Source: an uncultured Candidatus Saccharibacteria bacterium (GTDB lineage Bacteria; Patescibacteriota; Minisyncoccia; UBA6257; GWB1-50-10). Taken from it: a DNA stretch of 64,000 nucleotides. Location: positions 23,329-87,328 of the forward strand of contig CAYISA010000002.1 in NCBI GenBank assembly GCA_964365955.1. Direction: 5' to 3'. Position 1 is the stretch's first letter, and each line of letters begins with the position of its first letter. The position numbers were made by a program, and so were the translations under genes. Below the pieces are notes generated by a model, which searched no databases, was not told the DNA's origin, and saw nothing but the letters and a program-made list of their open reading frames with translations. This document shows positions 14,192 through 37,010 of the stretch, one piece after another.

Positions 14192-14192
14192 T

Positions 14193-20132: not shown

Positions 20133-20144
20133 CCGTCTCATCTC

Positions 20145-21143: not shown

Positions 21144-21174
21144 TAGAAGGGTTTTTTATTAATCCTGGAAATAT

Positions 21175-22104: not shown

Positions 22105-22157
22105 TTAGTTATACTATATCTAATTTTGCACCTTTTCAAAAATTCGTTTTGATTTTT

Positions 22158-23426: not shown

Positions 23427-23463
23427 GGTTTCTCAAAAACTAAAAGATTGTGGTCAACCAGAG

Positions 23464-24483
23464 CTAGTGTATTTCGGAAATATTTACTACACGTTTCTCT
23501 GCGTTTGATATTCTTGCGGCTTCAAGAATACGCGCTTGAGCCAAAAGATCATCTTCATAATCCTTCGTGCTTGCTTGACCCACAAAAATTTCTTTACAAA
23601 AATCGTCCACCATTAATTTAAAATGGTCGATCGGCGGGAATCCAATTTCCTCAACCCTATCGTTAGAATCAAGAAAAATTTTTGTTCCCATGTCACTTGG
23701 GACAGCATATGCTCGCCCCATTCTTATATGAGCCTTAGTACCCAAAACACTGTAGGTTGATTGAAAGTAAGAACCAAAGAATGAAGTAGTTGAGGCTGTT
23801 CGTCCCTCGGAATATTCCAGAAGTACGGTTGCGCCTATATCAACACCACTCTTCGGATCGATTTCCAATCGACAAAAAACACTGACCGGCTCTTCACCAA
23901 AAACCATCCGACTTGCAGAGACCGGATATACCGCACATGAGTTCAAAGATCCTCCCTCTAAATCTTTCTTCATCGCAATATCTGTTTCCTCAGGCATGGT
24001 AAAACCAAGACAACCATCAAATTTGGTAAGCCTCCCTAGAGTTCCTTGTTCTATCAATTCTTTTACTTTTATTTGTTGGGGGTGATAACGAAACATCAAG
24101 CCCTCAAGAAGCCGAACTTTGTTTTTTTTTGCAGCACCAACCATTCGCTTTGCTGCCGCATAAGAAATAGCGGCTGGTTTTTCGCAAATTACATGCTTTC
24201 CGGCCTCAAGTGCTTTCACAGTCCACTCTTCGTGAAGAGAGTTGGGAAGAGAAATATAAACCGCTTGAATATCCTTATTTTCTAAAACTTCTTCATATGT
24301 TCCCCACTTGTCCGCACCGAATTGCGCTGCGACTTCTTTTGCTTTTTCAGAGTTCCTACTTCCCACCATGCTAAGCTCGGAATATTCCGAACTTCCTATT
24401 GCGGAAAGCATCCTCTTCAGGGCAATACGTGATAAACCAATGACGCCAAATTTAACTTTAGAATTTTGTTTTTTTGTAGTCAT
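23464..24483 (-). CDS. Gfo/Idh/MocA family oxidoreductase (WbpB-like)
   Basis: KFGVIGLSRIALKR, CEKP motif. Confidence 0.8.
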   Translation of the reverse strand: MTTKKQNSKVKFGVIGLSRIALKRMLSAIGSSEYSELSMVGSRNSEKAKEVAAQFGADKWGTYEEVLENKDIQAVYISLPNSLHEEWTVKALEAGKHVICEKPAAISYAAAKRMVGAAKKNKVRLLEGLMFRYHPQQIKVKELIEQGTLGRLTKFDGCLGFTMPEETDIAMKKDLEGGSLNSCAVYPVSASRMVFGEEPVSVFCRLEIDPKSGVDIGATVLLEYSEGRTASTTSFFGSYFQSTYSVLGTKAHIRMGRAYAVPSDMGTKIFLDSNDRVEEIGFPPIDHFKLMVDDFCKEIFVGQASTKDYEDDLLAQARILEAARISNAEKRVVNISEIH

Positions 24484-24498
24484 GATATGTCAATTGCT

Positions 24499-25230
24499 TC
24501 AGGATTTTTTTGCTATAACGATAACATTTTGTGTAAAAACTCCTACCCCACTCCCGGCTTCAACTAGACGGTACAAACGAAGGCGAAGCTCAATACAAAA
24601 CCATAAAATAAGCCGAAGGAAAGAGATGGGTCCATGAGCCGTCGGCCGGACTGAAAAGACCTGCACTGCATCAAAGCCATATGCCAAAAGTATCTGTTTT
24701 AAACTTGAGCCAGTAAAACTTGTATCGTGTGTAAAGTCACCATAGCGGAGACGGCCACTCATCGGACTTTCGGCATTCGGAGTTTTTATAATAAGGGTTC
24801 CACCTTTTTTTAATGACTCAAAAATTAATTCCATAATTTCTAAAACTTCAGCTTTTTCAAAGTGACCCAAGACATCCCGTATAAAAATCAGATCAAAAAA
24901 ATTCTTTCGAGTTTTCAAAAAATTGCTCAGATCGTCCTTCTCAATTCCAGAGATACCAATTTTTTTACCCAACTCAATCTGCTCAGAACTCACATCAACC
25001 CCCACAGCATTTTTATAATCCAAGGACCTTAACCAATAAACAAAACCACCGTTGCCACATCCCAGATCAACAATATTCGCATCGGTATTCCCCGTCAAAA
25101 ATCCGGAATAATAATTATTCCAAGCAGTAAACTGGTTTTTAATAATTTCCAAGCTAGTGTCCCCATAAAGATTGTGATTGTGCTGGGAAACGTACTTTGA
25201 ATAAAATTTTTCTTTGTAATTACTCTCCAT
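24499..25230 (-). CDS. class I SAM-dependent methyltransferase
   Basis: IVDLGCGNGGFV motif I. Confidence 0.75.
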   Translation of the reverse strand: MESNYKEKFYSKYVSQHNHNLYGDTSLEIIKNQFTAWNNYYSGFLTGNTDANIVDLGCGNGGFVYWLRSLDYKNAVGVDVSSEQIELGKKIGISGIEKDDLSNFLKTRKNFFDLIFIRDVLGHFEKAEVLEIMELIFESLKKGGTLIIKTPNAESPMSGRLRYGDFTHDTSFTGSSLKQILLAYGFDAVQVFSVRPTAHGPISFLRLILWFCIELRLRLYRLVEAGSGVGVFTQNVIVIAKKS

Positions 25231-25233
25231 GAT

Positions 25234-26400
25234 TTAAGAAAGGGACTGAAGAACTGCTTTTAAAGTACGGACAACATAACTTTTTTCTTCATCGGTTAAA
25301 ATCGGGCCACTGGGAATATAAAATCCATTTAGGCCAAGATTGTTTGCAACCGGGCAGTCCTCTGGCTTCGCCAATCCTTTCTTAATGAAAATGTCTTGCA
25401 TATTGTACGGAATAAAATCTTCTCGAACTTCGATTCCCTGCCTTAATAATTCTTTAAGAACAGCTGACCTCTTCCCATGGGCGCTTCCACGAAGGATTAC
25501 ATTAAACATCCAGTACACATTCTTGGCATACGGTTTTTCTACAGGAAGCTGAAGTTGCTCTACATCCGCAAGTTCTTTTAAATAAAAGGAGGCGAGTTCT
25601 CGTTTTTTTTGAATGATAAAATCAATTTTTTTAAGCTGAGCCAACCCTAGCGCCGCCTGCAAATTCGTAAGCCGATAATTAAAACCAATCTCCTGATGCA
25701 TGAATTTGTTTTCTTTTCCAAACGCAAGCGCCTTTAGCATCCGCGCTCTTTCTGCAAGCTCCTTGTTATTGGTTGTGATCATTCCACCTTCACCAGTCGT
25801 GATTATTTTATTCGCATAAAAACTAAAACAACCAATATCACCCAAGGAACCGACTTTTCTCCCTTTGTATTCTGTGCCATGCGCTTCAGCACAATCTTCA
25901 ATTACATACAGGTTATGTTTTTTTGCAATCGCTAAAATTGGATCCATATCAACCGGGTGCCCGTAAATATGAACAACCATAATCGCCTTAGTTTTTGGCG
26001 TTATCTTTGCCTCAATCAAATTTGGATCAATGTTCCATGTGTCCGGTTCACTATCGATCGGAATGGGCCTTGCTCCTTGGTAATGGACAGCAAAGAAAGT
26101 GGCCATATTCGTAAAGCTCTGCACAAGCACATCATCACCCGCACCGATCTTCAGGGCCGCAAGTGCCAGATGAAGCGCCGTCGTCCCGTTTGATACAGTT
26201 ACTGCATGCTCAACCCCACAATAGCGCGCGAAGCCGGTTTCAAAGTCTGTTATATAGTTTCCGGAAAACCCAGAAAGCTCTCCTTTGTTTAGAGCGTCAT
26301 TTACAAACTTTTTTTCTTCTTCTCCAATAACCGGCTGGGAAACAGGGATTTTCATAAGAATTACAGGTGTAATTATGACGAAGTGGTGCAAAAAATACAA
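25234..26400 (-). CDS. DegT/DnrJ/EryC1/StrS family PLP-dependent sugar aminotransferase (WbpE-like)
   Basis: Characteristic SFxxxK lysine region (SFYANKIITTGEGG) and N-terminal cofactor-binding region. Confidence 0.85.
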   Translation of the reverse strand: MYFLHHFVIITPVILMKIPVSQPVIGEEEKKFVNDALNKGELSGFSGNYITDFETGFARYCGVEHAVTVSNGTTALHLALAALKIGAGDDVLVQSFTNMATFFAVHYQGARPIPIDSEPDTWNIDPNLIEAKITPKTKAIMVVHIYGHPVDMDPILAIAKKHNLYVIEDCAEAHGTEYKGRKVGSLGDIGCFSFYANKIITTGEGGMITTNNKELAERARMLKALAFGKENKFMHQEIGFNYRLTNLQAALGLAQLKKIDFIIQKKRELASFYLKELADVEQLQLPVEKPYAKNVYWMFNVILRGSAHGKRSAVLKELLRQGIEVREDFIPYNMQDIFIKKGLAKPEDCPVANNLGLNGFYIPSGPILTDEEKSYVVRTLKAVLQSLS

Positions 26401-26401
26401 A

Positions 26402-26430
26402 CGTACATAATAAAAAGAGGCGGGGTATTT
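26402..26430 (-). terminator. rho-independent terminator downstream of the HD-domain gene
   Basis: Perfect 9-bp GC stem GAGGCGGGG/CCCCGCCTC followed by a U-tract on the minus strand. Confidence 0.6.
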
Positions 26431-26458
26431 CCCCCGCCTCTACCTTGAGCTTTGTAAC

Positions 26459-27166
26459 TCAATCTCTCGCGAACTCCACCGGATATGGCACGAGACCTTC
26501 CTTGCGCCGCTGTTCCACAATCTTTTCGAGGAACGCTCTAAGTTCGGCCACATACTCCGTAATCATCCACTTCGCCTTCTCAGTCCGCACCGCGAATCGC
26601 GCATTCTCGGGAGAATTAAAATCTCCCCAGTCCAGGCAATCACGGAGAGCGTCCATAACCGTCGGACGACTATTGTAGCGCCCGACTTTCTCGCCGCTCA
26701 AAAGTCGAACGGGATCAAGCACTAGTTGTTCTGAATGAAACTGCGCCGAGCGAATTATGACATCGAGTCGCGTGTTTACAACCCGATCGGCGTCCTTCAA
26801 GGCAATCGTAACAGCATCATCTGACTCTTCGTTCGGTCTGCCATGATTCAAAACCGCTCGAGCAATGATCTGTTTTTCCTCTTCGGAGAGATTCGGTTCT
26901 GTATCAAGCCAGCTCCTTACTAGCACTTCGACATCTGCGGCGGGAACTTCTCCACGCGGCTTGCCTAAGTCTATCGCAATCATGCGATCAGCATTATGAC
27001 AAATACCAGCGACCCAAGCTTGACCAGAAGAATCCGACCAAAACGTTTGAGCAAGTTGTGCCACAGCAAAAGCATGATCGAAATCATGTCCATGGGCCAT
27101 CTTTCGGCTCACGTGTGCTTTTCTCACAATTTTTGTGAGATTCGGAAACACAGTCCATAAATGCAT
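26459..27166 (-). CDS. HD-domain-like phosphohydrolase (hypothetical)
   Basis: HGHDFDH ... CHNADR ... DADR motifs; visibly higher GC than its neighbours. Confidence 0.45.
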   Translation of the reverse strand: MHLWTVFPNLTKIVRKAHVSRKMAHGHDFDHAFAVAQLAQTFWSDSSGQAWVAGICHNADRMIAIDLGKPRGEVPAADVEVLVRSWLDTEPNLSEEEKQIIARAVLNHGRPNEESDDAVTIALKDADRVVNTRLDVIIRSAQFHSEQLVLDPVRLLSGEKVGRYNSRPTVMDALRDCLDWGDFNSPENARFAVRTEKAKWMITEYVAELRAFLEKIVEQRRKEGLVPYPVEFARD

Positions 27167-27303
27167 CTGAAACTCCTTTCGTAGAGTTATTTGCTATACG
27201 TTATTTTTAAGCTTCTAGTAAGACAATAACATACTATATATTTCTTTGTCAATACTACGTAATGGTTCAATAGCTTGGAATACCCCTCGGGGCCATTCAA
27301 GCT

Positions 27304-27657
27304 ATGTACATGGCATATTCTAACAATCCCCATCTGCCTCGTGTCCGACGGGAAGCGGTGCAGCTTGTTCGTGCAGGATGGAGCACCGTGAAGGTTGCTC
27401 GACATTTGGGATATTCCCAGAGTGCCGTTGTGAAGTGGGCGCAGCGTGCTCCGGAGGATGGGAGAAAAATCATTCCTACGCTCTCATCCCGCCCTCTTCA
27501 TCATCCGAACGAACTTTCGGATACGGTGGTGTTCCGCATCTTGGAACTTCGGAGAGAACGGAACCAATGCGCGGAGATTCTGCAGTATCGGCTGCAGAGA
27601 GAAGGAATCGCAGTATCTCTCTCTTCGGTAAAACGAACTCTCCGCAGACATCAATAG
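27304..27657 (+). mobile_element. truncated IS481-family transposase N-terminal HTH fragment (no DDE core)
   Basis: GWS..KVAR.LGYS...V.KW..R......SSRP.HHP......ILELRRER....I...L.REGI.VS.SSV.R.LRRH matches the IS481 transposase N-terminus; ORF stops before the integrase core; high-GC patch. Confidence 0.55.
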
Positions 27658-27663
27658 AACCCT

Positions 27664-28743
27664 TCACCTTATCTTGAGCTCGTGCTCCATCATTATGGAC
27701 ACAAGATCGTCAAATTTTATTTTCGGCTCCCAACCAAGTTTGGTTTTAGCTTTTGTATAATCACCCAGGAGATCGTGGACTTCTGATGGACGAAAGAAAT
27801 CCGGATCAATTTCCAATAGTACCGCCCCCGTTTTTTTATCAAACCCCTTTTCATCAATGCCCTTGCCGCGCCACTCTATATCAATTCCCACGTGTTTAAA
27901 GGATTTTTCAACAAATTCACGCACGGAGTGACTTTCTCCTGTTGCAATAACGTAATCATCTGGCTCCGACTGTTGTAGCATAAGCCACATCGCCTCTACA
28001 TATTCGGGAGCGTATCCCCAATCTCTTTTTGCATCTAAATTACCAAGATGTAGTTTTGGATGAAGTCCCTTCTTAATACCCACAACGCCTTTTGCAATTT
28101 TCCGTGTTACAAAATTAATTCCCCGCCTAGGTGATTCATGGTTAAAAAGAATGCCATTTGCTGCAAATATGTTATAAGCTTCGCGATAATTCCTTACTAC
28201 ATTGAATGCAAACACCTTGGCGCATCCATAAGGACTTCTTGGATGAAAAGGGGTTAGCTCATGTTGTGGAGCAGGAGCAGCGCCAAACATCTCTGAACTT
28301 GCCGCTTGGTAAAATTTAATTTTATGCCCCGGATTACGCGCTTCAAACTCTTTAATAAGCTCAAGGAGTCTTAACACACCAAGACCCGTAACATTCGCAG
28401 TATATTCGGGAATATCAAAACTAATTCGCACGTGGGATTGAGCGCCTAAGTTATAAATTTCGTCCGGAGGGAAGTCGAATTTATGGAGCCCATATCTTCC
28501 GTATGCGTCATGCGAACCAAATATAAACCTGGAAAGACTATGCGTATCTGAGAGATCGCCATAATCTCTAAAGAGGACCGCTCCTTTGTTATGTAAGTCT
28601 TTAAGGATATGGTCAATACGCTCCGTATTCGGAGAAGAAGAACGGCGAACAACTCCCATGACTTTATAGCCTTTTTCCAATAATAACTCAGCGAGGTATG
28701 AACCGTCTTGGCCCGTTATGCCCGTAATAAGCGCGCTTTTCAT
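27664..28743 (-). CDS. gmd: GDP-sugar 4,6-dehydratase (Gmd family; possibly GDP-heptose 4,6-dehydratase)
   Basis: [26 protein letters not shown]...VHG; start set at the MKSALITG Met. Confidence 0.85.
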
Positions 28744-28828
28744 GATTAACAAATGATAAGAAAAATAAGGCCGATGGTCAAGTTTATGCGTTGACTGATA
28801 AGGTTTATTTTGCTTACATGTATATGCT

Positions 28829-30061
28829 ATGGCGCATATTACGAAATGCAGATTTTGCAACAAAACGACCCTAGAGCCCTACCTTGACCTAGGTTTTACG
28901 CCTCATGCCGATCGATTCCCAACGTTGGAACAGCTCGAAAAGCCGGAACTATACCACCCCCTAAAAGTAATGATGTGTAAAAACTGCGGACTGCATCAAT
29001 TAAGCTACACAGTAGATCCAAAATTCCTTTACCAAGAGGATTATTTGTACGAATCGTCCATAACAAAAACCGGAGTTAGTCACTACCATAGTTTTGCCGA
29101 GTCGGTCACAAAGAAATTTGATCTTACAAAAAAAGACCTTGTGGTTGATGTGGGCTCAAACGTCGGGGTTCTCCTTAAGGGATTCAAAAACCAGGACGTA
29201 AAAATTCTTGGCGTTGATCCGGCAAAAAACATTGCGGCGATCGCGAATAAGAACGGCATACGGACCATTCCAGATTTTTTCGTTTCGCACGTTGCGCAGA
29301 CGGCGCGGAAAAAATACGGCCCCGCCAAAATCATTGTCGGCACGAATGTTTTTGCCCATATTTTTGACCACCACATTTTTATGAAAGCGGTAAAAATCCT
29401 TCTCGCAAAAGACGGGGTGTTTATCTTTGAATCCCCCCATCTTTCGCACCTCATACAAAACCTCGAATACGACACAATCTACCATCAGCACCTCCTCTAT
29501 CTATCATTAAAACCCGTGGTGCAATTTTTCAAAAGCCATGGAATGGAGGTATTTGATGTGGAAACATACCCCATTCACGGTGGCTCGTTTAGGGTATTTA
29601 TCGGTAACCGAGATGTCCACAAAGTCCAACTATCGGTGGCGCGGATGCTAAAAAGCGAAAAGAAAGGCGGAATTTATTTTATTCCGAAATTGAAAAAATT
29701 CGGAAAAAAAGTTCATCAGCACCGGCAAAAACTTATGAATTTATTGACGGATTTAAAGCGTCGTGGGAAAAAAATCGCCATTGTAAGCACCCCTGCCAAA
29801 GGAATGACCTTGTTAAATTTTTGCCGGATAGGTCCGGAACACGTTGAGTTTGCAACGGAAAAATCAAAATTAAAAATAGGTCGTTTTACTTCGGGAACGC
29901 ACATCCCGATTTTCCCCGATTCCGAATTATTGAAACGGAAACCCGATTATGCTCTGCTTCTGGCCTGGAATTTTGCGCCGGAGATTATGCGGGGACTAAG
30001 CGAGTACAAAAAGAAAGGTGGTAAATTTATCATCCCGATTCCTAAACCAAAAATAGTATAA
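28829..30061 (+). CDS. NDP-sugar C-methyltransferase (TylCIII-like; zinc ribbon + SAM MTase + C-methyltransferase C-terminal domain)
   Basis: CRFCNK...CKNCGLHQ zinc ribbon, [10 protein letters not shown] motif I, C-terminal domain characteristic of sugar C-MTs. Confidence 0.7.
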
Positions 30062-30068
30062 TTGAATT

Positions 30069-30446
30069 ATGCAAGTAGAAAAAAAGCCCATTAACTTCGA
30101 GGATGCGCGCGGCACTATCCGCGATATTCTGATTGGCGTAGATGTTGATGCAGTCACTATTATCACCTGTGCAAAAAATTCCGTCCGGGGAAATCACTTC
30201 CATAAAAAGACGACGCAAAACACTTATGTGGTAAGCGGCAAATTAATTTATGCAACCCAACAAGACGACGGACCGATCGAAACCAAAACTGTTGAAACAG
30301 GAGATATCACCATAGATATTCCAGGATCAAGGCATGCCTTCAAAGCGCTTAAAGATTCGGTTATCCTACAGATGTCAAAAGGCCCCCGCCAGGGGAAGGA
30401 ATACGAATCAGACACTTTTCGTTTAGAAAAACCGATTCTTTCATAA
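30069..30446 (+). CDS. cupin-fold sugar ketoisomerase/epimerase (FdtA/WxcM-like)
   Basis: INFEDARGTIRDI...RGNHFHKK pattern similar to FdtA/WxcM C-terminal domain. Confidence 0.55.
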   Translation: MQVEKKPINFEDARGTIRDILIGVDVDAVTIITCAKNSVRGNHFHKKTTQNTYVVSGKLIYATQQDDGPIETKTVETGDITIDIPGSRHAFKALKDSVILQMSKGPRQGKEYESDTFRLEKPILS

Positions 30447-30472
30447 AAATATCCCTTTGAGGGATATTTTTA
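30445..30472. terminator. bidirectional rho-independent terminator between convergent genes
   Basis: AAAATATCCC-tttga-GGGATATTTT hairpin flanked by A/T tracts. Confidence 0.55.
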
Positions 30473-30497: not shown

Positions 30498-31085
30498 TCA
30501 TTGAAGCATTTCAAGAGTGCTCTTGGTTTGTTCATCATCCGGCCACAGCGAAAGAATTCGCTTTGCGATCACTTTCGCTTTTTCTTTTTGACCGCCGTCT
30601 TTATAAAGTTGGAAAAGCGTATAAAGCGGAGGCGGCAACTTCGGACCGATTTCCAATACTTTTAAATAATAATCTTCGGCTTTCCCGAAATCTTCTTGTT
30701 TCCCAAAACGCCTCCATAAGATGTAGTACATCTGCCCCGTCGTCAAAAGATGCCGCACGTCGTTTTTAAACATATACGGCTCCAGGTATCCCAGAAGCGC
30801 GCGCGATACGTTTTCCGGCGTGTCTTGCTGCGAGATCGCGGACATAATATCGTTCGACAAAAACTTTGCAATCTCTTCGTCCCCCACGGGAGCATAGAAC
30901 TTGAACGACGCATCAAACGTATCCTGGAATTGCTGGAGCGATTGCACGGAGCCAAGAGCGCGAAGCCCCGCAATAAACCGGCGGGAACGCGCAATAGGAA
31001 GGAGTGACCCATAAATAATCGCGACGATCACGATCATCCCTACCATGCTCGAGATAATAATTTTAACGGTTGGAGTCGCGCGCAT
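30498..31085 (-). CDS. membrane-anchored TPR-like protein (hypothetical), overlaps the upstream gene
   Basis: N-terminal TM helix, then helical repeat region; 23-nt overlap with the ligase-family gene. Confidence 0.45.
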   Translation of the reverse strand: MRATPTVKIIISSMVGMIVIVAIIYGSLLPIARSRRFIAGLRALGSVQSLQQFQDTFDASFKFYAPVGDEEIAKFLSNDIMSAISQQDTPENVSRALLGYLEPYMFKNDVRHLLTTGQMYYILWRRFGKQEDFGKAEDYYLKVLEIGPKLPPPLYTLFQLYKDGGQKEKAKVIAKRILSLWPDDEQTKSTLEMLQ

Positions 31086-32493
31086 GTTCGATGATGGTAT
31101 TGGAACTCGACGATTTGAATTCTAAAAGAAACGTGGAAAATGCCAGGAAGAAAAATAAATTGAGGTAGGTGGGAAGTACGTCGAAGAGCACTAATCCTTG
31201 CACAAGATACGCAATCGGGATCGCGGCAATCAAGGCACGCTGAAACGATGATTTTTGGGAAATGAACGAATCCTGTTTTTTGGACGCGATAAAGAAACGC
31301 CAGTAAAAAACGATAAACATTCCCACAAAACTCAAAAGACCCACAATGCCCGTCTCGGCCAAGTAATCGAAAATCAAACTGTGAGCGCGGTCAAACCATG
31401 CCCCGAATCCATCCTTCGGAATAAAATAGCGCGTATCGAAATGGGTGTCGAAAATTTTAATATAGTTCTCCGGTCCCCAACCGAACACGGGGTGCACTTT
31501 AAATCCTTCCCACGCCACATTCCACATAATACGCCGTGTTGCGAATGTCTCCGCGGAAATGGAGACATCGAAAACACGATGACCTGGAATCGCCTGCACA
31601 AAAGGGGTATTTTTAAAATTGATCAAAAGCACCACCACGGCAATAAAGGCGACGACGCCCGTAATCAGCCACTTCCGCCATACTTTGTGACTGTAAGCAA
31701 ATAACAGCGCCGCAAAAACCGCCGACGCCACAAGTCCCATAAATGCTCCGCGCGTACCTGCAAGGAAAAAGAAAGCAAGAAAAATAGCGAGAAGTCCTAA
31801 GAGAATCCATGCGGAAGGTTTCTGTTTAAAATCTTTATATTTTTCTGCAAAAAAGTATAGGACATAATACACCATGAATGCCAAGAATACAGCTACGTAA
31901 GACGAGTTGCCGATGGAGCCTGCGAAACGAAATCCCGGAGTGCTGAATTTATCGCCAATAAAACCGAACATACCGAAATTCGCCAATACACCATATAAAA
32001 TCATCAGTGTTGCGCCCACGAAAAACCACCGGAGCGCTGTGTGCCATTGCTTTTCTTCATGAAATAAGAGCGACGTGAGAATAAAGAAAAACCAAAGATG
32101 AAGAATCTGAAACCCACCTTCACCGCGCTCAAAATTTGACCAAAACGACCACTTGGGATCGATACCGAAAAAAGATGCTAAGAGAAACGCGATCGTGAAA
32201 ACGGTAACCGCGATCGCGATCGGGGATCTGAATAAACTTTTCAACCGCGTCCAGAAAAACTCCGCCTGTTTCCCCCACAAAAGTCCCATCACGGTAAAAA
32301 AGAACGCCAGATCCACGGCGGTGCGGAACCAGACATATTTACCGACAATAAAAGGGAATAGCGTGGAGGTAGTGACAATCGCGACGGTAACGCCGATTGC
32401 CATCAGAAAAAATCGGGCAATTTTGAAAAAGTCGGGCATAACACTAAATAGTCGTTTATCAGTGTACTGTATTCGTGAAGTCCCTGCAACCAA
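31063..32493 (-). CDS. O-antigen ligase family (Wzy_C) polytopic membrane protein; candidate oligosaccharyltransferase or polymerase
   Basis: About 12 predicted TM segments; loop motif FDRAHSLIFDYLAETGIVGL matches the O-antigen ligase H-N-x-x-L...E-x-G signature. Confidence 0.7.
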   Translation of the reverse strand: MVAGTSRIQYTDKRLFSVMPDFFKIARFFLMAIGVTVAIVTTSTLFPFIVGKYVWFRTAVDLAFFFTVMGLLWGKQAEFFWTRLKSLFRSPIAIAVTVFTIAFLLASFFGIDPKWSFWSNFERGEGGFQILHLWFFFILTSLLFHEEKQWHTALRWFFVGATLMILYGVLANFGMFGFIGDKFSTPGFRFAGSIGNSSYVAVFLAFMVYYVLYFFAEKYKDFKQKPSAWILLGLLAIFLAFFFLAGTRGAFMGLVASAVFAALLFAYSHKVWRKWLITGVVAFIAVVVLLINFKNTPFVQAIPGHRVFDVSISAETFATRRIMWNVAWEGFKVHPVFGWGPENYIKIFDTHFDTRYFIPKDGFGAWFDRAHSLIFDYLAETGIVGLLSFVGMFIVFYWRFFIASKKQDSFISQKSSFQRALIAAIPIAYLVQGLVLFDVLPTYLNLFFFLAFSTFLLEFKSSSSNTIIEHARDSNR

Positions 32494-32552
32494 AATTAAA
32501 ACCGCCCCGAAGGGCGGTTTTAATACAGTTTTTTGCTACTGCAAAACCAGAT

Positions 32553-35500
32553 TTAGGTCTTCGCGGTAACCGTTCCGAGTGAAGGCGTACCATCAACATA
32601 CATGTTGCTGGTGGTATCGGACAAGTCAGAGTCAGCATTACCGGAGTATCCAAGATCGGACTCAAGTGCGTAGTAGATGACATTCCCCAACGCGCTCACA
32701 GAAAGCTGGAACGTGTTGTTGTTTGCCGCCGCTGCGCTGGTCTTGATCGTGAGATACCTCCAAGAACCTCCATCGAGCTTCGCTTCTGTAGGAGTAACTA
32801 CAGCCGTATCAAACGGAATCGTGGAAGAAGCGCCGAAGGTACCGGTGTTTGCCGCATACCCACTGCCGCTCGACCATGCCGATGTATCCGACTGACCGCC
32901 ACCCATCGCAGATGCGTAGATCTTAAAGGTTGTGGACGAAGAGGCAGTTCCACCGTTCGCAAACACAAATGTTGATGTCGCGAGGTAGACCGGAGCAGAA
33001 CCGTTATTGGTAACTTTGAAGATACCAACTGTGTTTCCACTACCCGTACCAATATCGACTGCCGTAAGCGGAGACACCGCGGAGATCACAACGTTTTGCG
33101 ATGTGACATACGTAATACCGCTCGCCGTCGGCGTACCGGTAATGGTCGCCGTTGTCGTTGCAGTGGTGTTTCCTTTCACGGCAATATCTGTCGTCGCCGC
33201 AATCGAGAACACATAGTCATTCGCCAAGATCGCAACACCACCGTTTGACACATCCGCTTTTACCGACATCGTCACACCTGTGACCGGCACCGGGGCCGAA
33301 AGCAGGTTATCCGTTGCGGTAAACGTGATCGTACAAACCGTTGCGGTGCAAGCATCAAACTGCGAGGCCTGTGCGACTTGGGTCGAGCCTTCGTACAAAC
33401 GAATGTTTGAAAGCGTCGTTGTCGCCAAAGCGCCCGCGCCTGTTGCGGTGATCTTCAAGGACGTAATCTTCTGCGTCTCAAACTGCGAGGTCATCTTCCA
33501 CGCAAAGTAGACACCATTTGCGGTACCCACGCTCACCACCTGCTTCTGGGAAGGCGATGCGCCACTACCAGAAACCAATGCGAGGTTGAGTTTGCCGGAT
33601 GCGACATGCGTCATCATCTGGCCAGTACCCGCGAACGTGATGTTCGTTCCGTGCGTCAAAGAGTTACCCGTAGAGATACCTGTTGCAACAATGTTTCCCG
33701 AAGAGGAAGCAATGTTGAACGTGCTGGTGGTTGTTCCGGAGAGCGCATCCGCCTTAAGGTGGAGCGTAACCGGAGCCACACGCGTCACAACAATCGGAGT
33801 TGTGAAGTCAAACGTTACGGTTACCGCATTGGTAGCGGTCGATCCGGTTGTCGGAAGCGGAGAAGTGTCATTATCTTTGTAGAGATAAAGATTCCCCACG
33901 TCCCCAACGGTCGGACCCGTATGCGTGACAATGATTTTTGTTACCTTCACATCCTCGCCGCCCGACTGGGCATTGAGCTGGAGGGTAGCATATTCATAGC
34001 CGTTTGTTCCCGCAACAACAGAGTTCGCGACCGGAGTCGAGAGTGTCGTTACTGCGAGTTTCGCGGCCTGAACGCCAACCGTAAGACCGCTCACGGTTCC
34101 CACGGAAGGATCCGTAAGATCATTTGTGATCAAGCGCTTTACCTGAAGAAGGTCAAACGCGTTCACTGTGTAGGTCGCGGTTGAGGCCGCACTGGAATTC
34201 ACAGAACCTTCTACCGAAATCACGGAGTCCTGACCGGAAGTCAGAATCGGATACGAAGAAAGCGTGATGGTCTGAACCGTTCCTGCTGTAGCGAAACCGG
34301 AAGCGGCTGCGCTGTAGACCGTTACGCCGTTTACCTTCACATAAACCGTGCCGGTAAGAGCAGTCGTAACCTGTGTGATCCCAAAACTAATCTGGCGGAG
34401 TTCCATGTTTTCACCCGTCGGCTTCGCATTGAATTTCGCGAGAACCACGTTGGTGGAACCAGGAACCACGGAAGCGCTCGGGGAGTCCGACGCGCGGGTA
34501 AAGGTAACCGAACCCGAGTTGATGGTATGAATGTTGAATCCATTACCAATCGGGAATGATGTGTCATTCGAGCCTACACCCGGAATGACGGATACGCCGG
34601 TTGATGCGCCACGAATATCAATATCGTAGTTGTTGTAAACCACGAACTCAATTTTGCGGCTGGTGCCATCAACAACTTTTGCGCGCACCGCGAAATCTTT
34701 CGTCAATCCCTTGTCAATGAAGTAGGGCGACGTGAGGTTAAAGACAATGTTCTTGCTAGAGGGCTGTGCCGTTGCAAGAACCGTGCCGTCCTGCGCTTCC
34801 AAGGTGATATCTTTAATATCCCTGTCGGAGGCAGTGTTGTACATGTAAAGCGTTAAGCTATGCAAGTAAATTCCCTCGTTGCTTCCAACTTCTTGAATTC
34901 GGAATTTTGTGATTTCCTGAACACTGTTCGGATCCACGTTCAACGACGAGGAACCGGTGGAGGTGAGCACATCAAGCGTCGTAGACGCAAGAGAGGTACC
35001 ACCATTCACAATGTTCATCGCATTACCGTTCAACGGAAATGCTCCGGAAACTGCGGTCGTGTCGGCGCCCACTGCGGAAACCGAGTTGAGGCCGAACGCA
35101 ACCGTACCGTTGTAATTTCCTGTAAGGAGGTTAAAGCGAACCGTGAGGTATTCCGTCGATCCTGCGCCAACCATGACCGGATCCATCGACATCGTGATCA
35201 AAACGGAGTTGTCGGCATTCACCGAGGTTACGACATTTCCATGCCGCATCCCCTTAGAATCCACGACATCCACGCCGTTCAAATTCGAATTTGCGAGAAA
35301 TCCGCTCTTCATGACGGAGAGGGACGAAACTTTCACGTTTTTGGAACCGGCAGTTAACTTCACCTTTAAGGCGGGGTTAAACGCGGTACCACTTCCGAGC
35401 GTGCGAGACGCCGGATTGTCCGATGCCAACTCCACCATCAGATCCGTTCCCACGGGAACCGGAACCGGTCCTGGTACGGGGATCGGAGAAGGAGCAGTCG

Positions 35501-35888
35501 CCATTGCGGCGCGGCTTTTCGGACCAAAGTAGCCAACCGCTGGGGTAATCCCATTCGCGCTCTGCCATGCGGCAAGAGCGGCTTTGGTCATAGGACCAAA
35601 GTAGCCGGTGGGGGCGGAAATTTTAAGGTAACCACCCGAGATCAAGACATTCTGCAGAGCCGTTACGTCAGCGCCTTTCGATCCGAGAGTGAGGTTCACG
35701 GAGAAAGTGTATGACGACGGAGCAGTTGCCTGCACAGCGCCCAATTTTGCTTGAAGCGCTGCGATTTGAGCTAAAATTGCAGCTACATCTGCGGAAGAAA
35801 GCGATTGTGCCGCCGCGATTCCCGAAAGGGACGCGATGGTCGCTACCGCTACTGCCACGGATGCAACTTTTCGTACTAATATACTCAT
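32553..35888 (-). CDS. 1111-aa secreted surface protein (S-layer-like): signal peptide, coiled segment, peptidoglycan-binding domain, Pro-rich linker, ~950 aa Thr/Ser/Gly/Val/Asn-rich beta-type region
   Basis: N-terminus MSILVRKVASVAVAVATIASLSGIAAAQS; PG_binding_1-like GSKGADVTALQNVL...GYFGPMTKAALAAWQSANG; PIPVPGPVPVPV linker; long low-complexity Thr/Ser-rich body. Confidence 0.8.
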   Translation of the reverse strand: MSILVRKVASVAVAVATIASLSGIAAAQSLSSADVAAILAQIAALQAKLGAVQATAPSSYTFSVNLTLGSKGADVTALQNVLISGGYLKISAPTGYFGPMTKAALAAWQSANGITPAVGYFGPKSRAAMATAPSPIPVPGPVPVPVGTDLMVELASDNPASRTLGSGTAFNPALKVKLTAGSKNVKVSSLSVMKSGFLANSNLNGVDVVDSKGMRHGNVVTSVNADNSVLITMSMDPVMVGAGSTEYLTVRFNLLTGNYNGTVAFGLNSVSAVGADTTAVSGAFPLNGNAMNIVNGGTSLASTTLDVLTSTGSSSLNVDPNSVQEITKFRIQEVGSNEGIYLHSLTLYMYNTASDRDIKDITLEAQDGTVLATAQPSSKNIVFNLTSPYFIDKGLTKDFAVRAKVVDGTSRKIEFVVYNNYDIDIRGASTGVSVIPGVGSNDTSFPIGNGFNIHTINSGSVTFTRASDSPSASVVPGSTNVVLAKFNAKPTGENMELRQISFGITQVTTALTGTVYVKVNGVTVYSAAASGFATAGTVQTITLSSYPILTSGQDSVISVEGSVNSSAASTATYTVNAFDLLQVKRLITNDLTDPSVGTVSGLTVGVQAAKLAVTTLSTPVANSVVAGTNGYEYATLQLNAQSGGEDVKVTKIIVTHTGPTVGDVGNLYLYKDNDTSPLPTTGSTATNAVTVTFDFTTPIVVTRVAPVTLHLKADALSGTTTSTFNIASSSGNIVATGISTGNSLTHGTNITFAGTGQMMTHVASGKLNLALVSGSGASPSQKQVVSVGTANGVYFAWKMTSQFETQKITSLKITATGAGALATTTLSNIRLYEGSTQVAQASQFDACTATVCTITFTATDNLLSAPVPVTGVTMSVKADVSNGGVAILANDYVFSIAATTDIAVKGNTTATTTATITGTPTASGITYVTSQNVVISAVSPLTAVDIGTGSGNTVGIFKVTNNGSAPVYLATSTFVFANGGTASSSTTFKIYASAMGGGQSDTSAWSSGSGYAANTGTFGASSTIPFDTAVVTPTEAKLDGGSWRYLTIKTSAAAANNNTFQLSVSALGNVIYYALESDLGYSGNADSDLSDTTSNMYVDGTPSLGTVTAKT

Positions 35889-36140
35889 TTCTAACTTATA
35901 TTTAACTTAATTATTTTTTATTTTGTATGGTTTCGACCTTTTTTTCTGATACCTGTCGCCCACGCGTTTCGACCCTGATACCATCAGGAACCGTTAGGGA
36001 CAGGGGTGATAATGATTGAAAAAAGAAAAATCCCGCTTTATTGGAGCGAGACAAAAAATAACGCTAATACCCCGACTGGGTGATAAACGCAAAACCGACC
36101 TAGAATTAGCGTATTCGGCCTCACACCAAATACAGCAATG

Positions 36141-36257: not shown

Positions 36258-37010
36258 CTAAACAGACCACTGACTCCCCGCAAATATGAGGATAGCCACC
36301 CCAACAAAAAAAGCGAGTCCACGAAGAAGGAAGGGGATGTCCAACTTGCCGCGATAATGGGCTATTACGGAATCGCGCATGAGAAAGAGAATGAGCGTCA
36401 AAAACGCGGCGGCATTTAAAAATCCGAGCGGCAACAGTTTCAGAAAAAATCCTGCCTGAAGCGCCAGGAACGCAATCACCGCGCTTACAATCCATACTCG
36501 TCGCCTTCCTGCAATGTCAAAAAATCCAAAAGCGCCCCGAAACAGCAACAAAACGGCGCAGAAAAGAAAAAGTGCCGACATAAGGGCAAAAAATCCGCTA
36601 AAACTAAACGCCCATGCCGCAACCAAGAAAAAGAGGGTGGTGCTTAAAAGGGAATAGACAAACTCGCGTTGTTTTATGAAAAATGACGTAATTCCCACAA
36701 GAAAGAAAAAGAAGATAGTAAAACCGACAATGACCCATCCTATCGACGCGCTTTCGGGAAACGTCTCGGCGAGCGCTTTCAGTTCTCCTACGCTTAGAAT
36801 CGCGAAAAACCAGAACATAATGCGCGTACGCTTCCTCTCCGGCTGTTCCTGTAGATAAATCCAGAGCAAAAATGCTCCGTACAGCGTCCAAAACAAAAAT
36901 TCGGTGGAATCATACGTGCTCCACCATAAAAAACCGCCGAACAGCGCCGCTTCAAGCGCTAATCTCCACGCGATTCGCTGGGTTAAGAAAAACGTTAACT
37001 TTTTGACCAT
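36258..37010 (-). CDS. polytopic integral membrane protein (hypothetical)
   Basis: Multiple hydrophobic helices; no recognisable motif. Confidence 0.45.

What the first reader, a model, noticed from the sequence alone, without database searches (positions are those of the whole stretch)
30498..35888. Operon for a giant PG-binding S-layer-like protein, an O-antigen-ligase-family protein and a TPR protein, directly next to a glycan island: candidate surface-protein O-glycosylation system
Three minus-strand genes are co-oriented, and two of them overlap. The first encodes a 1111-aa secreted protein with a peptidoglycan-binding domain and a ~950-aa Thr/Ser-rich body, which offers many potential O-glycosylation sites. 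The second is a Wzy_C/O-antigen-ligase-family polytopic protein (FDRAHS...AETG motif). The third is a TM+TPR protein. The operon ends at a terminator at 30445-30472, exactly where the 30-kb glycosyltransferase/methyltransferase/GDP-heptose island begins. In Gram-positive S-layer glycosylation loci (for example Geobacillus and Paenibacillus slg clusters), the O-oligosaccharyl:protein transferase is an O-antigen-ligase homolog, and in Aneurinibacillus the S-layer glycan contains D-glycero-D-manno-heptose made via GDP-heptose. The same logic appears here, but with a different protein scaffold and an unusually methylation-rich sugar toolkit. No wzx/wzz/wzy trio is evident, so this would be a protein-glycosylation system and not an LPS O-antigen locus, presumably in a monoderm.
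Basis: partly seen in the sequence, partly recalled or inferred. Interest (0 to 1): 0.85.

Follow-up and report, generated by a model that had tools for sequence, protein, structure and literature searches.

The report
Patescibacterial S-layer gene beside glycan ligase
In an ultra-small groundwater bacterium (Patescibacteria), the gene for the probable cell-surface lattice protein sits next to a WaaL-type glycan transferase, its TPR helper and a roughly 35-kb variable sugar-synthesis island, which is the layout expected for a system that sugar-coats the surface protein, although nobody has shown the sugar on the protein.

Summary
They are a 1111-aa secreted protein with a PG_binding_1 domain, a Wzy_C protein (458 aa from the ATG at 32439), and a protein with one transmembrane helix plus TPR repeats.

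Two points in the description need correcting.
- A strong terminator hairpin (32495-32524) follows the big gene. An equivalent hairpin is present in all 20 related loci tested, so this is not a strict three-gene operon.
- A Wzx flippase and a WbaP-type initiating transferase do exist. They lie 1.4-4.2 kb beyond the window's left edge on the same genome.

The big protein belongs to a very large Patescibacteria family (1,634 cluster representatives at E<=1e-30). Members share an all-beta, Ig-like body and swap their cell-wall anchor (PG_binding_1, SLH or other). It is very probably the six-Ig S-layer protein predicted in a 2024 preprint.

Giant, then Wzy_C, then TPR, then glycan genes recurs in 20 of the 23 independent related loci examined. 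One of them has a different genomic backbone. Wzy_C and TPR are repeatedly fused into one protein.

The Wzy_C protein has a WaaL fold and the invariant Arg/Arg/His triad. It stays 44-54% identical while the glycan genes downstream change.

Best reading (about 0.55): an S-layer O-glycosylation locus like those of Firmicutes, here in a new phylum and on unrelated scaffolds. This is inferred, not shown.

The parts
32553..35888 (-). Gene for the 1111-aa secreted protein, the probable S-layer protein. It has a signal peptide (about aa 1-27), a helical linker, PG_binding_1 (aa 72-129, window 35502-35675), a Pro-rich linker (aa 133-147), and an all-beta Ig-like/cohesin-like body (aa 148-1111).
35889..36029 (-). 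About 140-nt leader upstream of the S-layer gene. It carries the conserved boxes ATCCTCAC and GTTCCAGAAA and repeated (A/G)GGTCGAAA motifs.
   Evidence: Alignment A6. GTCGA density is 9.5/kb in the leaders of 20 loci against 0.65/kb background. No significant fold (z -0.73). No Rfam hit.
36030..36052 (-). Terminator-like hairpin ending the upstream clpB / 250-aa membrane protein unit. It marks the 5' border of the S-layer transcription unit.
   Evidence: The equivalent CCTCGC...GCGAGG + T-run element aligns in relatives.
32495..32524 (-). Intrinsic-terminator hairpin (13-bp stem AAAACCGCCC / GGGCGGTTTT, TTCG loop, T run), 29 nt after the S-layer gene's stop codon and before the Wzy_C gene.
   Evidence: An equivalent hairpin lies 0-50 nt after the stop in 20/20 related loci, dG -15 to -31 kcal/mol.
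31063..32439 (-). Gene for the WaaL-fold Wzy_C protein (458 aa, 12 predicted TM helices). It is the candidate O-oligosaccharyl:protein transferase or ligase. The Pfam Wzy_C domain maps to about 31324-31794.
   Evidence: A profile of 29 homologs hits WaaL 7TPG (E 3.9e-9) and an 'Oligosaccharyltransferase' 9RMK (E 2.7e-5). A fused ortholog model matches 7TPG with TM 0.66.
31339..31395 (-). Catalytic-loop motif FDRAH(353)S-x9-G-xx-G, which fits H[NSQ]x9Gxx[GTY]. Together with R230 and R302 it forms the WaaL/PglL Arg/Arg/His triad.
   Evidence: Invariant in 29 homologs. Correspondence to PglL R224/R298/H349 comes from the HMMER alignment and the residue list in PMC3643930.
30498..31085 (-). Gene for the 195-aa (or 182-aa) partner protein. 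It has an N-terminal TM helix (aa 6-30) and then a helical TPR-like domain (aa about 100-190). The domain is predicted to face outward, next to the catalytic loop of Wzy_C.
   Evidence: It aligns with the C-terminal TM+TPR part of the 640-666-aa fused orthologs P0178, P0201, P0205, P0210, P0228 and P0234. Fused model pLDDT 92.5, pTM 0.92. The outward orientation is inferred from the 12-TM WaaL topology plus one extra TM.
30445..30472 (.). Bidirectional terminator-like hairpin between the convergent TPR gene (-) and cupin gene (+). It marks the border between the conserved module and the variable glycan island.
   Evidence: Sequence read.
1..30446 (.). Glycan-synthesis island with lower GC (0.37-0.47, against 0.49-0.52 to the right). 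It holds 8 GTs, 6 intact methyltransferases plus 1 split one (including a C-methyltransferase), NDP-heptose-like genes (GmhA, HddA, GmhB, nucleotidyltransferase) with transaldolase, GDP-mannose 4,6-dehydratase, a cupin, a DegT aminotransferase, UDP-Glc dehydrogenase, epimerases and oxidoreductases. It continues 4.2 kb beyond window position 1 with a GFO_IDH gene, a Wzx flippase and a WbaP-like phosphoglycosyl transferase.
   Evidence: Extension in L038, which is the same genome.
36258..37010 (-). Conserved 250-aa polytopic membrane protein of unknown family, directly upstream of the S-layer gene and overlapping the end of clpB. It may or may not belong to the system.
   Evidence: No Pfam or NCBIfam hit. 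Detected by tblastn in this position in 12 of the 15 Paceibacteria loci L010-L025 (not in L010, L011, L021), and called in L032 and L035-L037. Absent in the distant-backbone loci L030 and L033.

Best explanation
This is the S-layer gene of a Patescibacteria (class Paceibacteria-type) bacterium, followed by the transfer module of an S-layer O-glycosylation pathway. Steps 2-6 are inferred from family membership.

1. The 1111-aa protein is exported by Sec. It is tethered to peptidoglycan by its N-terminal PG_binding_1 domain, and its Ig-like domains build the surface lattice. The architecture is shown; lattice formation is inferred from the literature on what is very probably the same family.
2. 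On the cytoplasmic face, a WbaP-like transferase encoded at the far end of the island primes undecaprenyl phosphate.
3. Eight glycosyltransferases extend the glycan with heptose, 6-deoxy/amino and uronic-acid-type sugars made by island enzymes.
4. Several SAM methyltransferases decorate the glycan.
5. A Wzx flippase moves the lipid-linked glycan outward.
6. The 12-TM WaaL-fold Wzy_C enzyme uses its Arg230/Arg302/His353 site in the large outer loop. Working with the membrane-anchored, outward-facing TPR partner, it transfers the glycan en bloc to hydroxyl side chains of the S-layer protein as that protein emerges. The transfer chemistry is inferred from the family. The acceptor is inferred from conserved adjacency and the TPR analogy.
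7. The S-layer gene is its own strongly terminated unit. Wzy_C and TPR form a coupled pair downstream.
8. The island is the strain-variable part, while the ligase/TPR/target module stays constant.
For: S-layer identity:
- Full-length family across Paceibacterota, Jorgensen-, Brenner-, Wolfe-, Magasanik-, Gribaldo- and Peregrinibacteria, with 1,634 representatives at E<=1e-30.
- A conserved body with swapped anchors: PG_binding_1, SLH or unknown.
- A confident all-beta multi-Ig model.
- S-layer-like composition.
- A conserved strong terminator in 20/20 loci.
- A preprint predicts a roughly 1130-1270-aa six-Ig Patescibacteria SLP forming p6 lattices, with homologs among the most expressed secreted genes. 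Kuroda 2024 describes those as PG-binding-domain proteins.

Linkage:
- Giant, Wzy_C, TPR in 15/15 Paceibacteria loci seeded on the giant protein, in L032, and in 3/3 loci seeded on Wzy_C.
- L033 has a different backbone (ECF sigma/DUF5667 upstream) but still has giant, then a Wzy_C-TPR fusion, then sugar genes.
- Sugar genes lie downstream in all 20 Wzy_C-bearing loci, and their content varies.

Wzy_C and TPR as one machine:
- Recurrent fusions.
- Four-nt overlaps in relatives.
- Fused model pTM 0.92.

Ligase-type enzyme:
- Wzy_C above the Pfam threshold.
- WaaL 7TPG and an oligosaccharyltransferase are the only enzymes among the 3 PDB sequence hits; the third is a 34-aa peptide at E 0.3.
- WaaL fold.
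- Invariant triad.
- 44-54% identity retained across genomes whose glycan genes differ. Ligases and OTases behave this way. Repeat-unit-specific polymerases, to my knowledge, do not.

Precedent:
- WsaB with the adjacent TPR protein WsaA, WsfB with a fused TPR, and PglL with a TPR (PMC2943079).
- O-OTase genes commonly sit beside their target gene (PMC3643930).

Complete pathway:
- PGT and Wzx on the same genome.
Against: - There is no direct evidence of any glycan on the protein.
- A terminator separates the presumed target gene from the transferase gene. Unrelated genes are inserted between them in 5 loci, with a small GIY-YIG/23S-IVP-type ORF in a sixth.
- Much of the synteny lies inside one class with a conserved clpB backbone, so it is partly inherited order. 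Only L033 breaks the backbone, and its fused Wzy_C is a distant paralog-like form.
- Three distant S-layer loci (L028, L030, L034) have no Wzy_C within 10 kb.
- The PglL-specific motif PF15864 is absent.
- A Wzx flippase with a single Wzy_C protein also fits a Wzx/Wzy polymerase pathway.
- Some relatives carry two Wzy_C paralogs, so the window's type might be the polymerase.
- Identity with the published SLP family could not be checked by sequence.
Confidence: 0.55

Rival explanations
1. The Wzy_C/TPR pair is not a protein glycosyltransferase. It would instead be the polymerase (Wzy) or the ligase of a Wzx-dependent cell-wall polysaccharide, capsule or glycolipid. Its place beside the S-layer gene would only reflect a conserved envelope-gene neighbourhood in Paceibacteria.
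For: - Wzx and a WbaP-like PGT are present, and this is the only Wzy_C-type protein in the roughly 36-kb island.
- Weak sub-threshold similarity to the repeat-unit polymerase TIGR04370 (E 2.9e-4, 19.9 bits against a cut-off of 40) and to EpsG.
- A conserved terminator and inserted genes lie between the S-layer gene and Wzy_C.
- The glycan genes track Wzy_C, not the S-layer gene. Loci without Wzy_C lack adjacent sugar genes.
- The clpB-anchored synteny is partly phylogenetic inertia.
Against: - No PCP/Wzz, no LCP ligase and no other acceptor-specific enzyme in the window or in L038.
- The Arg/Arg/His ligase triad and the H[NSQ]x9Gxx[GTY] motif are invariant.
- The nearest solved relatives are WaaL and an oligosaccharyltransferase.
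- 44-54% conservation despite differing glycan gene sets is unlike repeat-unit-specific polymerases (the comparison is from my own knowledge).
- A TPR partner is the feature shared by WsaA/B, WsfB and PglL.
- The linkage to the S-layer gene survives on a different backbone in L033.
Confidence: 0.25
2. It is a general O-glycosylation system. Its physiologically important targets would be other secreted proteins, such as type IV pilins or other wall-bound proteins. [quoted passage not shown]
For: - PglL-type enzymes are often broad-spectrum and need not be next to their targets (PMC3643930).
- Patescibacterial pilins have predicted O-glycosylation sites, and their glycosylation is called unexplored (PMC11623550).
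- Extra secreted Ser/Thr-rich proteins are inserted next to Wzy_C in L016, L017 and L023.
Against: - No pilin gene lies in the window or in the 20 Wzy_C-bearing loci next to Wzy_C.
- The only constant neighbour is the S-layer gene.
Confidence: 0.1
3. The 1111-aa protein is not an S-layer protein. It would instead be a wall-anchored adhesin or host-attachment protein, as first proposed for its highly expressed PG-binding relatives. In that case the locus would be an adhesin-plus-glycan locus.
For: - Kuroda et al. read the highly expressed PG-binding-domain proteins as host-attachment factors (PMC10936435).
- Foldseek's best matches are adhesin and integrin Ig arrays (PrgB, AgI/II).
- No lattice was computed here.
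Against: - One gene at a fixed locus in each of the 23 related loci fetched, across many classes, with a conserved body and swapped wall anchors including SLH.
- The preprint's multimer predictions of p6 lattices for what is very probably the same family.
- S-layers have been seen on Patescibacteria cells (PMC13293708).
- S-layer-like composition.
Confidence: 0.1

Closest known systems
Geobacillus stearothermophilus NRS 2004/3a slg cluster (S-layer protein SgsE with WsaA/WsaB, WsaP, GTs)
   Same: - The S-layer gene is next to a glycan cluster.
- The predicted O-OTase WsaB has a Wzy_C domain and no TPR, and a separate small TPR protein (WsaA, 168 aa) is encoded beside it. The window has the same split: 458-aa Wzy_C plus a 182-195-aa TPR protein.
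- A WbaP-type initiating enzyme is present.
- The glycan is O-methylated (PMC2943079).
   Different: - The TPR gene is upstream of wsaB there and downstream here.
- Export there is by a Wzm/Wzt ABC transporter. Here it is a Wzx-type flippase.
- The S-layer proteins are unrelated, and this one is anchored by PG_binding_1.
- The Firmicute cluster is polycistronic. Here the S-layer gene is separately terminated.
- No sequence comparison with WsaB was possible with these tools.
Paenibacillus alvei CCM 2051T slg locus (SpaA, WsfB)
   Same: - WsfB is Wzy_C with a C-terminal TPR, like the fused 640-790-aa forms in relatives (P0178, P0234, L033, and type A in L035/L037).
- wsfB is transcribed on its own, so the locus is a 'locus' rather than an operon.
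- An asparagine-synthase homolog sits in the locus, as in L032.
   Different: - Glycosylation there is on tyrosine, on an SLH-type Firmicute S-layer protein.
- Export there is by an ABC transporter.
- Acceptor residues here are unknown.
Neisseria PglL, Pseudomonas PilO/TfpO and Acinetobacter PglL/ComP O-oligosaccharyltransferases
   Same: - Wzy_C domain and the conserved Arg/Arg/His triad.
- The donor is flipped by Wzx (PglF).
- The gene is often directly beside the target gene.
- PglL carries a C-terminal TPR.
- A profile of the window family hits the solved 'Oligosaccharyltransferase' 9RMK at E 2.7e-5.
   Different: - The PglL_A motif (PF15864) is not detected.
- The targets there are pilins or periplasmic proteins of diderms.
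- Identity is below 20%.
WaaL O-antigen ligase (Cupriavidus metallidurans, PDB 7TPG)
   Same: - It is the best solved relative by sequence profile (E 3.9e-9) and by fold (TM 0.66, 17% id).
- It shares the 12-TM topology and the catalytic loop between TM9 and TM10.
   Different: - WaaL's acceptor is lipid A-core. No LPS genes are in the window, and Patescibacteria are described as lacking an outer membrane or LPS (my own knowledge, not tested).
- WaaL has no TPR partner.
Predicted six-Ig-domain S-layer protein of Patescibacteria (bioRxiv 10.1101/2024.05.28.596244; e.g. A0A1G2EN61 at 1131 aa, GMX59286.1 at 1185 aa)
   Same: - Same size range, an Ig-like domain array and phylum-wide distribution.
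- Members are PG-binding-domain proteins among the most expressed secreted genes.
   Different: - Identity of the family is inferred. The accessions could not be retrieved or compared.
- In the text and supplement held and searched here, the preprint says nothing about glycosylation of these proteins or about the neighbouring Wzy_C/TPR genes.

Membership tests
WaaL/PglL superfamily (Pfam Wzy_C, PF04932) | Wzy_C domain above Pfam gathering score | tested here: met
   69.1 bits against a cut-off of 31.7, E 4.5e-19.
WaaL/PglL superfamily (Pfam Wzy_C, PF04932) | Conserved Arg/Arg/His (E. coli WaaL R215, R288, H338 = PglL R224, R298, H349) in and around the large outer loop | tested here: met
   Window R230, R302 and H353 align to these in the HMMER alignment with 9RMK and 7TPG. 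They are invariant in 29 homologs. The residue list is from PMC3643930.
WaaL/PglL superfamily (Pfam Wzy_C, PF04932) | 12-TM WaaL fold | tested here: met
   The AF2 model of the fused ortholog P0178 (53% id to the window protein) matches 7TPG with TM 0.66 over 455 columns. The window protein itself was not modelled.
PglL-type protein O-oligosaccharyltransferases | PglL_A motif (Pfam PF15864) | tested here: not met
   No hit at E<=0.1 in the Pfam scan. PilO also lacks this motif, so its absence does not exclude O-OTase activity.
PglL-type protein O-oligosaccharyltransferases | Transfers lipid-linked glycan to Ser/Thr of proteins | not testable with these tools
   This needs biochemistry or glycoproteomics.
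WaaL lipid A-core ligase | Sits in, or acts with, LPS core/lipid A biosynthesis | tested here: not met
   No lipid A, core or Lpt genes in the 64-kb window or in L038. The rest of the genome was not seen.
Wzy repeat-unit polymerase (Wzx/Wzy pathway) | Accompanied by a Wzx flippase | tested here: met
   A Polysacc_synt/MatE-type 491-aa protein lies 1.4 kb beyond the window's left edge.
Wzy repeat-unit polymerase (Wzx/Wzy pathway) | Accompanied by a chain-length regulator (Wzz/PCP), or by CpsCD plus an LCP ligase in monoderms | tested here: not met
   None in the window or in L038.
Wzy repeat-unit polymerase (Wzx/Wzy pathway) | NCBIfam oligosaccharide repeat unit polymerase model (TIGR04370) above cut-off | tested here: not met
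   19.9 bits against a cut-off of 40.
Wzy repeat-unit polymerase (Wzx/Wzy pathway) | Sequence diverges with the repeat-unit structure (serotype-specific) | tested here: not met
   44-54% identity is kept across 15 genomes whose downstream glycan genes differ. The criterion itself is from my own knowledge.
Firmicute-type S-layer glycosylation (slg) locus | S-layer structural gene next to the glycan biosynthesis cluster | tested here: met
   Window layout, plus all 20 related loci that carry Wzy_C. This is conditional on the big protein being the S-layer protein.
Firmicute-type S-layer glycosylation (slg) locus | Wzy_C-type O-OTase with a TPR module, fused or encoded beside it | tested here: met
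   The definition is from PMC2943079.
Firmicute-type S-layer glycosylation (slg) locus | WbaP-type initiating transferase | tested here: met
   A 442-aa Bac_transf protein on the same genome.
Firmicute-type S-layer glycosylation (slg) locus | Export by a Wzm/Wzt ABC transporter | tested here: not met
   No ABC glycan exporter was found. A Wzx-type flippase is present instead.
Firmicute-type S-layer glycosylation (slg) locus | Glycan demonstrated on the S-layer protein | not testable with these tools
   No proteomic data are available.
Bacterial S-layer protein (Patescibacteria six-Ig type) | Signal peptide, cell-wall anchoring module and multi-domain Ig-like body, with anchor modularity across homologs | tested here: met
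Bacterial S-layer protein (Patescibacteria six-Ig type) | Self-assembly into a 2D lattice | not tested
   No multimer prediction tool was available. The preprint predicts p6 lattices for the presumed family.
Bacterial S-layer protein (Patescibacteria six-Ig type) | Sequence homology to the published candidates (A0A1G2EN61, A0A0G1WWP5, GMX59286.1) | not testable with these tools
   The afdb50 library was unavailable. The accessions were not among listed hits or cluster members.

The most novel reading that the evidence does not exclude
[quoted passage not shown] These work with a membrane-anchored (or fused) outward-facing TPR subunit and accept very different lipid-linked glycans. The adjacent low-GC, methyl- and heptose-rich island would then supply a strain-specific sugar coat. 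That coat would set surface identity for host attachment and phage evasion in these episymbionts. It would also make the enzyme a glycan-promiscuous O-OTase that targets folded Ig-like domains.
Probability: 0.35. Interest if true: 0.7.

Novelty: new variant of a known kind. Interest (0 to 1): 0.58.

Why it matters
Patescibacteria (CPR) make up a large share of bacterial diversity, are mostly uncultured, and live attached to other cells, so their surface chemistry is central to how they find hosts and escape phages. A 2024 paper calls their glycosylation 'unexplored'. I found no paper that links their predicted S-layer protein to a glycan-transfer machine: a full-text search for 'candidate phyla radiation' plus 'O-antigen ligase' returned 0 papers.

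If the reading is right, one conserved three-part module (target, WaaL-fold transferase, TPR partner) next to a variable island would explain a surface glycoprotein coat in a whole class. It would give a simple genomic marker for it. It would also offer a new O-OTase clade for glycoengineering. The claim can be tested directly with metaproteomics of small-cell filter fractions or by heterologous expression.

Tried and rejected
- An exact-sequence look-up of the 476-aa TTG-start Wzy_C found nothing. The 458-aa ATG start is the one on record.
- The search for related loci with the broad alignment A1 failed because no stretch was conserved enough. A narrower alignment A2 worked, which biased those loci toward Paceibacteria.
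- The Wzy_C protein searched alone against PDB sequences gave nothing. Only the profile reached WaaL and the OTase.
- The afdb50 fold search, which might have tied the big protein to the published SLP accessions, was unavailable.
- Cluster look-ups and a third homolog search did not surface those accessions.
- BLAST self-comparison found no internal sequence repeats in the big protein.
- 23 of its 274 Ser/Thr are conserved at 90% or more, but this does not identify acceptor sites.
- The TPR protein next to the S-layer gene in L030 is not demonstrably homologous to the window's TPR protein (E 0.08), so I did not count it as conserved linkage.
- I had treated L033's fusion as a Rosetta stone for the window's own ortholog. 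It is about equally distant from types A and B, slightly nearer type A. The fusion argument therefore rests on the 50%-identical fused orthologs.
- I considered a WaaL-type LPS ligase role and rejected it for lack of any LPS context.
- I considered an exosortase-like role for the 250-aa membrane protein and dropped it, because the big protein has no C-terminal sorting signal or TM helix.
- The leader RNA has no significant predicted structure.
- No consensus sigma-70 promoter was found between the terminator and the Wzy_C start, so how Wzy_C is transcribed is unknown.

Full report
**1. What is in the sequence.**

The three minus-strand ORFs exist as described: 32553-35888 (1111 aa), 31063-32493 and 30498-31085.

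- Pfam finds PG_binding_1 at aa 72-129 of the large protein (E 8.6e-10) and nothing in the remaining roughly 980 residues.
- Pfam finds Wzy_C in the second protein (69 bits against a cut-off of 31.7).
- The third protein has only sub-threshold TPR hits (E about 1e-3), and it has one N-terminal TM helix.
- Public gene calls start the Wzy_C gene at the ATG at 32439 (458 aa). They start the TPR gene at either of two sites, so the 23-nt overlap depends on the start chosen.
- The hairpin at 30445-30472 is there.

The window is a Hainich groundwater (well H43, 0.1/0.2-um filter) metagenome sequence. NCBI labels it 'Patescibacteria group bacterium'.

**2. Two corrections to the description.**

First, a strong terminator-like hairpin lies 29 nt after the large gene's stop codon, at 32495-32524, before Wzy_C. 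It has a 13-bp stem, a TTCG loop and a T run. A hairpin of the same kind follows the orthologous gene in all 20 related loci I tested. In five loci unrelated genes are inserted between the two genes, and a sixth has a small extra ORF there. The large gene is therefore its own transcription unit, and the 'three-gene operon' is at most a read-through arrangement. Wzy_C and TPR do look coupled: they overlap by 4 nt in several relatives.

Second, the window contains no polytopic membrane protein in the island and no flippase or priming enzyme. However, a contig that matches the window with 0 mismatches over 12,336 nt continues past window position 1. It encodes a GFO_IDH protein, a Wzx-type flippase (Polysacc_synt/MatE, 491 aa) and a WbaP-like Bac_transf protein (442 aa), followed by thioredoxin genes. 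The island is thus about 35 kb and encodes a complete Wzx-dependent lipid-linked glycan pathway.

**3. The large protein.**

It has 522 homologs at E<=1e-5 in the word-indexed search. A profile search of 1.84 billion cluster representatives finds 1,634 at E<=1e-30. The named members are all Patescibacteria apart from one record labelled Acidobacteria (P0328): Paceibacterota, Jorgensen-, Brenner-, Wolfe-, Magasanik-, Gribaldo- and Peregrinibacteria.

The roughly 960-aa body is conserved while the N-terminal wall anchor is swapped:
- PG_binding_1 in most members.
- Three SLH repeats in P0088, P0104, P0306 and others.
- An unassigned three-repeat module in P0079.

A 2024 preprint predicts a Patescibacteria S-layer protein made of six Ig-like domains, 1131-1274 aa long, forming hexagonal p6 lattices. 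It describes it as 'numerous across many Patescibacterial classes' and reports homologs among the five most expressed secreted genes of two Paceibacteria. The transcriptome paper describes those genes as PG-binding-domain proteins. I infer that the window protein belongs to this family. I could not compare the sequences directly.

**4. Is the linkage more than chance or inheritance?**

- In 15 of 15 genome loci found with the large protein (48-64% identity), the order giant, Wzy_C, TPR recurs downstream of clpB. Most loci also keep SIMPL, HtrA and the 250-aa membrane gene upstream. Wzy_C is 44-54% identical and TPR 34-52% identical.
- The same order is seen in a 36%-identical relative (L032).
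- It is seen in 3 of 3 loci reached from the Wzy_C side.
- Because most of these loci share the clpB backbone, part of this is inherited gene order.
- The informative case is L033. Upstream it has an ECF sigma factor and a DUF5667 protein instead of clpB. The S-layer gene is still followed by a Wzy_C-TPR fusion protein and then by sugar-nucleotide and GT genes.
- Three distant loci (L028 with an SLH anchor, L030, L034) have no Wzy_C within 10 kb, and also no adjacent sugar genes.
- Sugar genes lie within 8-10 kb downstream in all 20 Wzy_C-bearing loci, but which genes they are differs from genome to genome.
- In the window the island has lower GC (0.37-0.47) than the right flank (0.49-0.52).

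So there is a constant module (target, transferase, TPR) joined to a variable glycan cassette.

**5. Wzy_C and TPR act together.**

Among orthologs about 50% identical to the window's Wzy_C, at least seven are 640-666-aa proteins. Their extra C-terminal part aligns residue by residue with the window's TPR protein, including its TM helix. The AF2 model of one fusion (P0178) has pLDDT 92.5 and pTM 0.92. Its membrane part matches WaaL 7TPG (TM 0.66), and its last roughly 130 residues match designed TPR arrays (TM about 0.7).

Counting helices gives 12 TMs, with the large loop between TM9 and TM10 as in WaaL. A 13th TM follows and leads into the TPR domain. I infer that the TPR faces outward, on the same side as the catalytic loop.

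**6. What kind of Wzy_C enzyme?**

A profile of 29 homologs hits two solved enzymes: WaaL of C. metallidurans (E 3.9e-9) and a 610-aa 'Oligosaccharyltransferase' (9RMK, E 2.7e-5). The only other PDB hit is a 34-aa peptide at E 0.3.

The three residues essential in WaaL and conserved in PglL (R215/R288/H338 and R224/R298/H349; PMC3643930) correspond to R230, R302 and H353 here. All three are invariant, as is H-S/N-x9-G-xx-G.

The PglL-specific PF15864 motif is absent, so the protein is not a PglL-family member in the narrow sense. PilO lacks that motif too.

Against a polymerase role:
- No Wzz/PCP or LCP gene is nearby.
- The TIGR04370 score is sub-threshold.
- The enzyme stays conserved while the glycan genes change.

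For a polymerase role:
- A Wzx is present and no second Wzy-like protein is in the island.
- L035 and L037 carry two Wzy_C paralogs in tandem after the S-layer gene. Type A is 759-785 aa with canonical TPRs and is about 29% identical to type B, the window's type. This could mean one polymerase and one ligase, or two ligases for two glycans.

**7. Comparison with known systems.**

The closest described arrangement is the Firmicute S-layer glycosylation locus.
- In Geobacillus, the predicted O-OTase WsaB (Wzy_C, no TPR) is encoded beside the 168-aa TPR protein WsaA.
- In Paenibacillus alvei, WsfB carries the TPR itself and is transcribed alone.
- PglL also has a TPR (PMC2943079).

The window reproduces this split-or-fused TPR feature, the WbaP-type initiator and the methylated glycan theme. 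It differs in four ways:
- It uses Wzx instead of Wzm/Wzt.
- Its S-layer scaffold is unrelated and anchored by PG_binding_1.
- Its transferase is only remotely related to any characterised one.
- Its S-layer gene is separately terminated.

The GDP-heptose claim is plausible but soft. GmhA-, GmhB-, HddA- and nucleotidyltransferase-like proteins sit together with a transaldolase, but all four score below NCBIfam equivalog cut-offs. The transaldolase and GDP-mannose 4,6-dehydratase pass.

**8. Verdict.**

- I put about 0.55 on S-layer (surface-protein) O-glycosylation.
- I put about 0.25 on a non-protein glycan polymerase or ligase.
- I put smaller weights on a general glycosylation system with other main targets, and on the large protein being an adhesin.

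The S-layer protein family itself has very probably been predicted already. The link to a WaaL-fold transferase with a TPR partner and a variable glycan island in Patescibacteria appears undescribed in the searchable literature. I rate it a new variant of a known kind, of moderate to good interest, and directly testable.

Noticed in passing
window 35889-36029 (- strand); leaders in L010-L037: The 5' leader of the S-layer gene carries conserved sequence boxes (ATCCTCAC, GTTCCAGAAA) and 2-4 copies of (A/G)GGTCGAAA spaced about 30-40 nt apart. GTCGA is about 15-fold enriched in the leaders of 20 loci (9.5/kb against 0.65/kb). There is no significant predicted structure and no Rfam match. It may be a regulatory or translation-enhancing element of a very highly expressed mRNA.
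   Followed up: partly
L035:5639-9359 and L037:5725-9938: Some relatives have two tandem Wzy_C genes right after the S-layer gene. The first is a 759-785-aa type with canonical TPRs (about 29% id to the window's). The second is the window's ortholog. They may be a polymerase plus a ligase, or two ligases for two glycans.
   Followed up: partly
P0088, P0104, P0306 (SLH); P0079 aa 35-235; P0090 aa 30-170: The S-layer family swaps its wall anchor. Versions seen are PG_binding_1, three SLH repeats, an unassigned three-repeat module (no Pfam hit), and PG_binding_1 followed by short Cys-bracketed repeats.
   Followed up: partly
L030:6968-8686 and L033:7743-9671: In the Magasanikbacteria-like lineages an ECF sigma factor and a DUF5667 protein (anti-sigma-like) sit directly upstream of the S-layer gene, in place of clpB. 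This hints at dedicated transcriptional control.
   Followed up: no
window 36258-37010 (-): A 250-aa polytopic membrane protein with no family assignment overlaps the 3' end of clpB by 59 nt. It was detected immediately upstream of the S-layer gene in 12 of the 15 Paceibacteria loci L010-L025, and is called there in L032 and L035-L037.
   Followed up: partly
window 3919-4883 (-): Two overlapping ORFs (146 and 191 aa) together look like one Methyltransf_24-type gene split by a frameshift. The same split is called in the independent assembly L038.
   Followed up: partly
window 27304-27657 (+); L009:7511-9908: A small HTH_23/Terminase_5-like ORF sits inside the glycan island. A sister assembly (L009) lacks it and has shorter C-methyltransferase and GDP-mannose dehydratase calls. 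This suggests strain-level rearrangement at this spot.
   Followed up: no
L011:13459-14837, L012:13216-13781, L015:13438-14596, L016:13423-16629, L017:13217-15618, L023:13366-15553: The gap between the S-layer gene's terminator and Wzy_C is an insertion hot spot. Inserts include a 23S-rRNA-IVP-type small gene (L012), an unassigned 227-aa ORF (L011), an unassigned 298-aa ORF (L015), and extra signal-peptide Ser/Thr-rich proteins (L016, L017, L023).
   Followed up: partly
L032:15972-19583; L020:14935-17456: In L032 a PMT_2 (GT-C) protein and an asparagine synthase homolog follow the TPR gene. P. alvei's slg locus also has an AsnB homolog, WsfA. In L020 a GT2 gene and a 589-aa ORF on the opposite strand (not analysed further) lie between Wzy_C and TPR, which may be a lipid-carrier side-branch glycosylation module.
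   Followed up: no
window 39767-40387 (+): A second, small PG_binding_1 protein (206 aa, N-terminal TM helix, E 5.7e-15) is encoded divergently next to clpB. It is also called in the sister assemblies of the same population (L001-L003, L007, L008).
   Followed up: no
window 1-30000 against 32000-64000: The GC content of the glycan island is 0.37-0.47, against 0.49-0.52 in most of the rest of the window. This is the compositional signature typical of exchangeable surface-glycan loci.
   Followed up: partly
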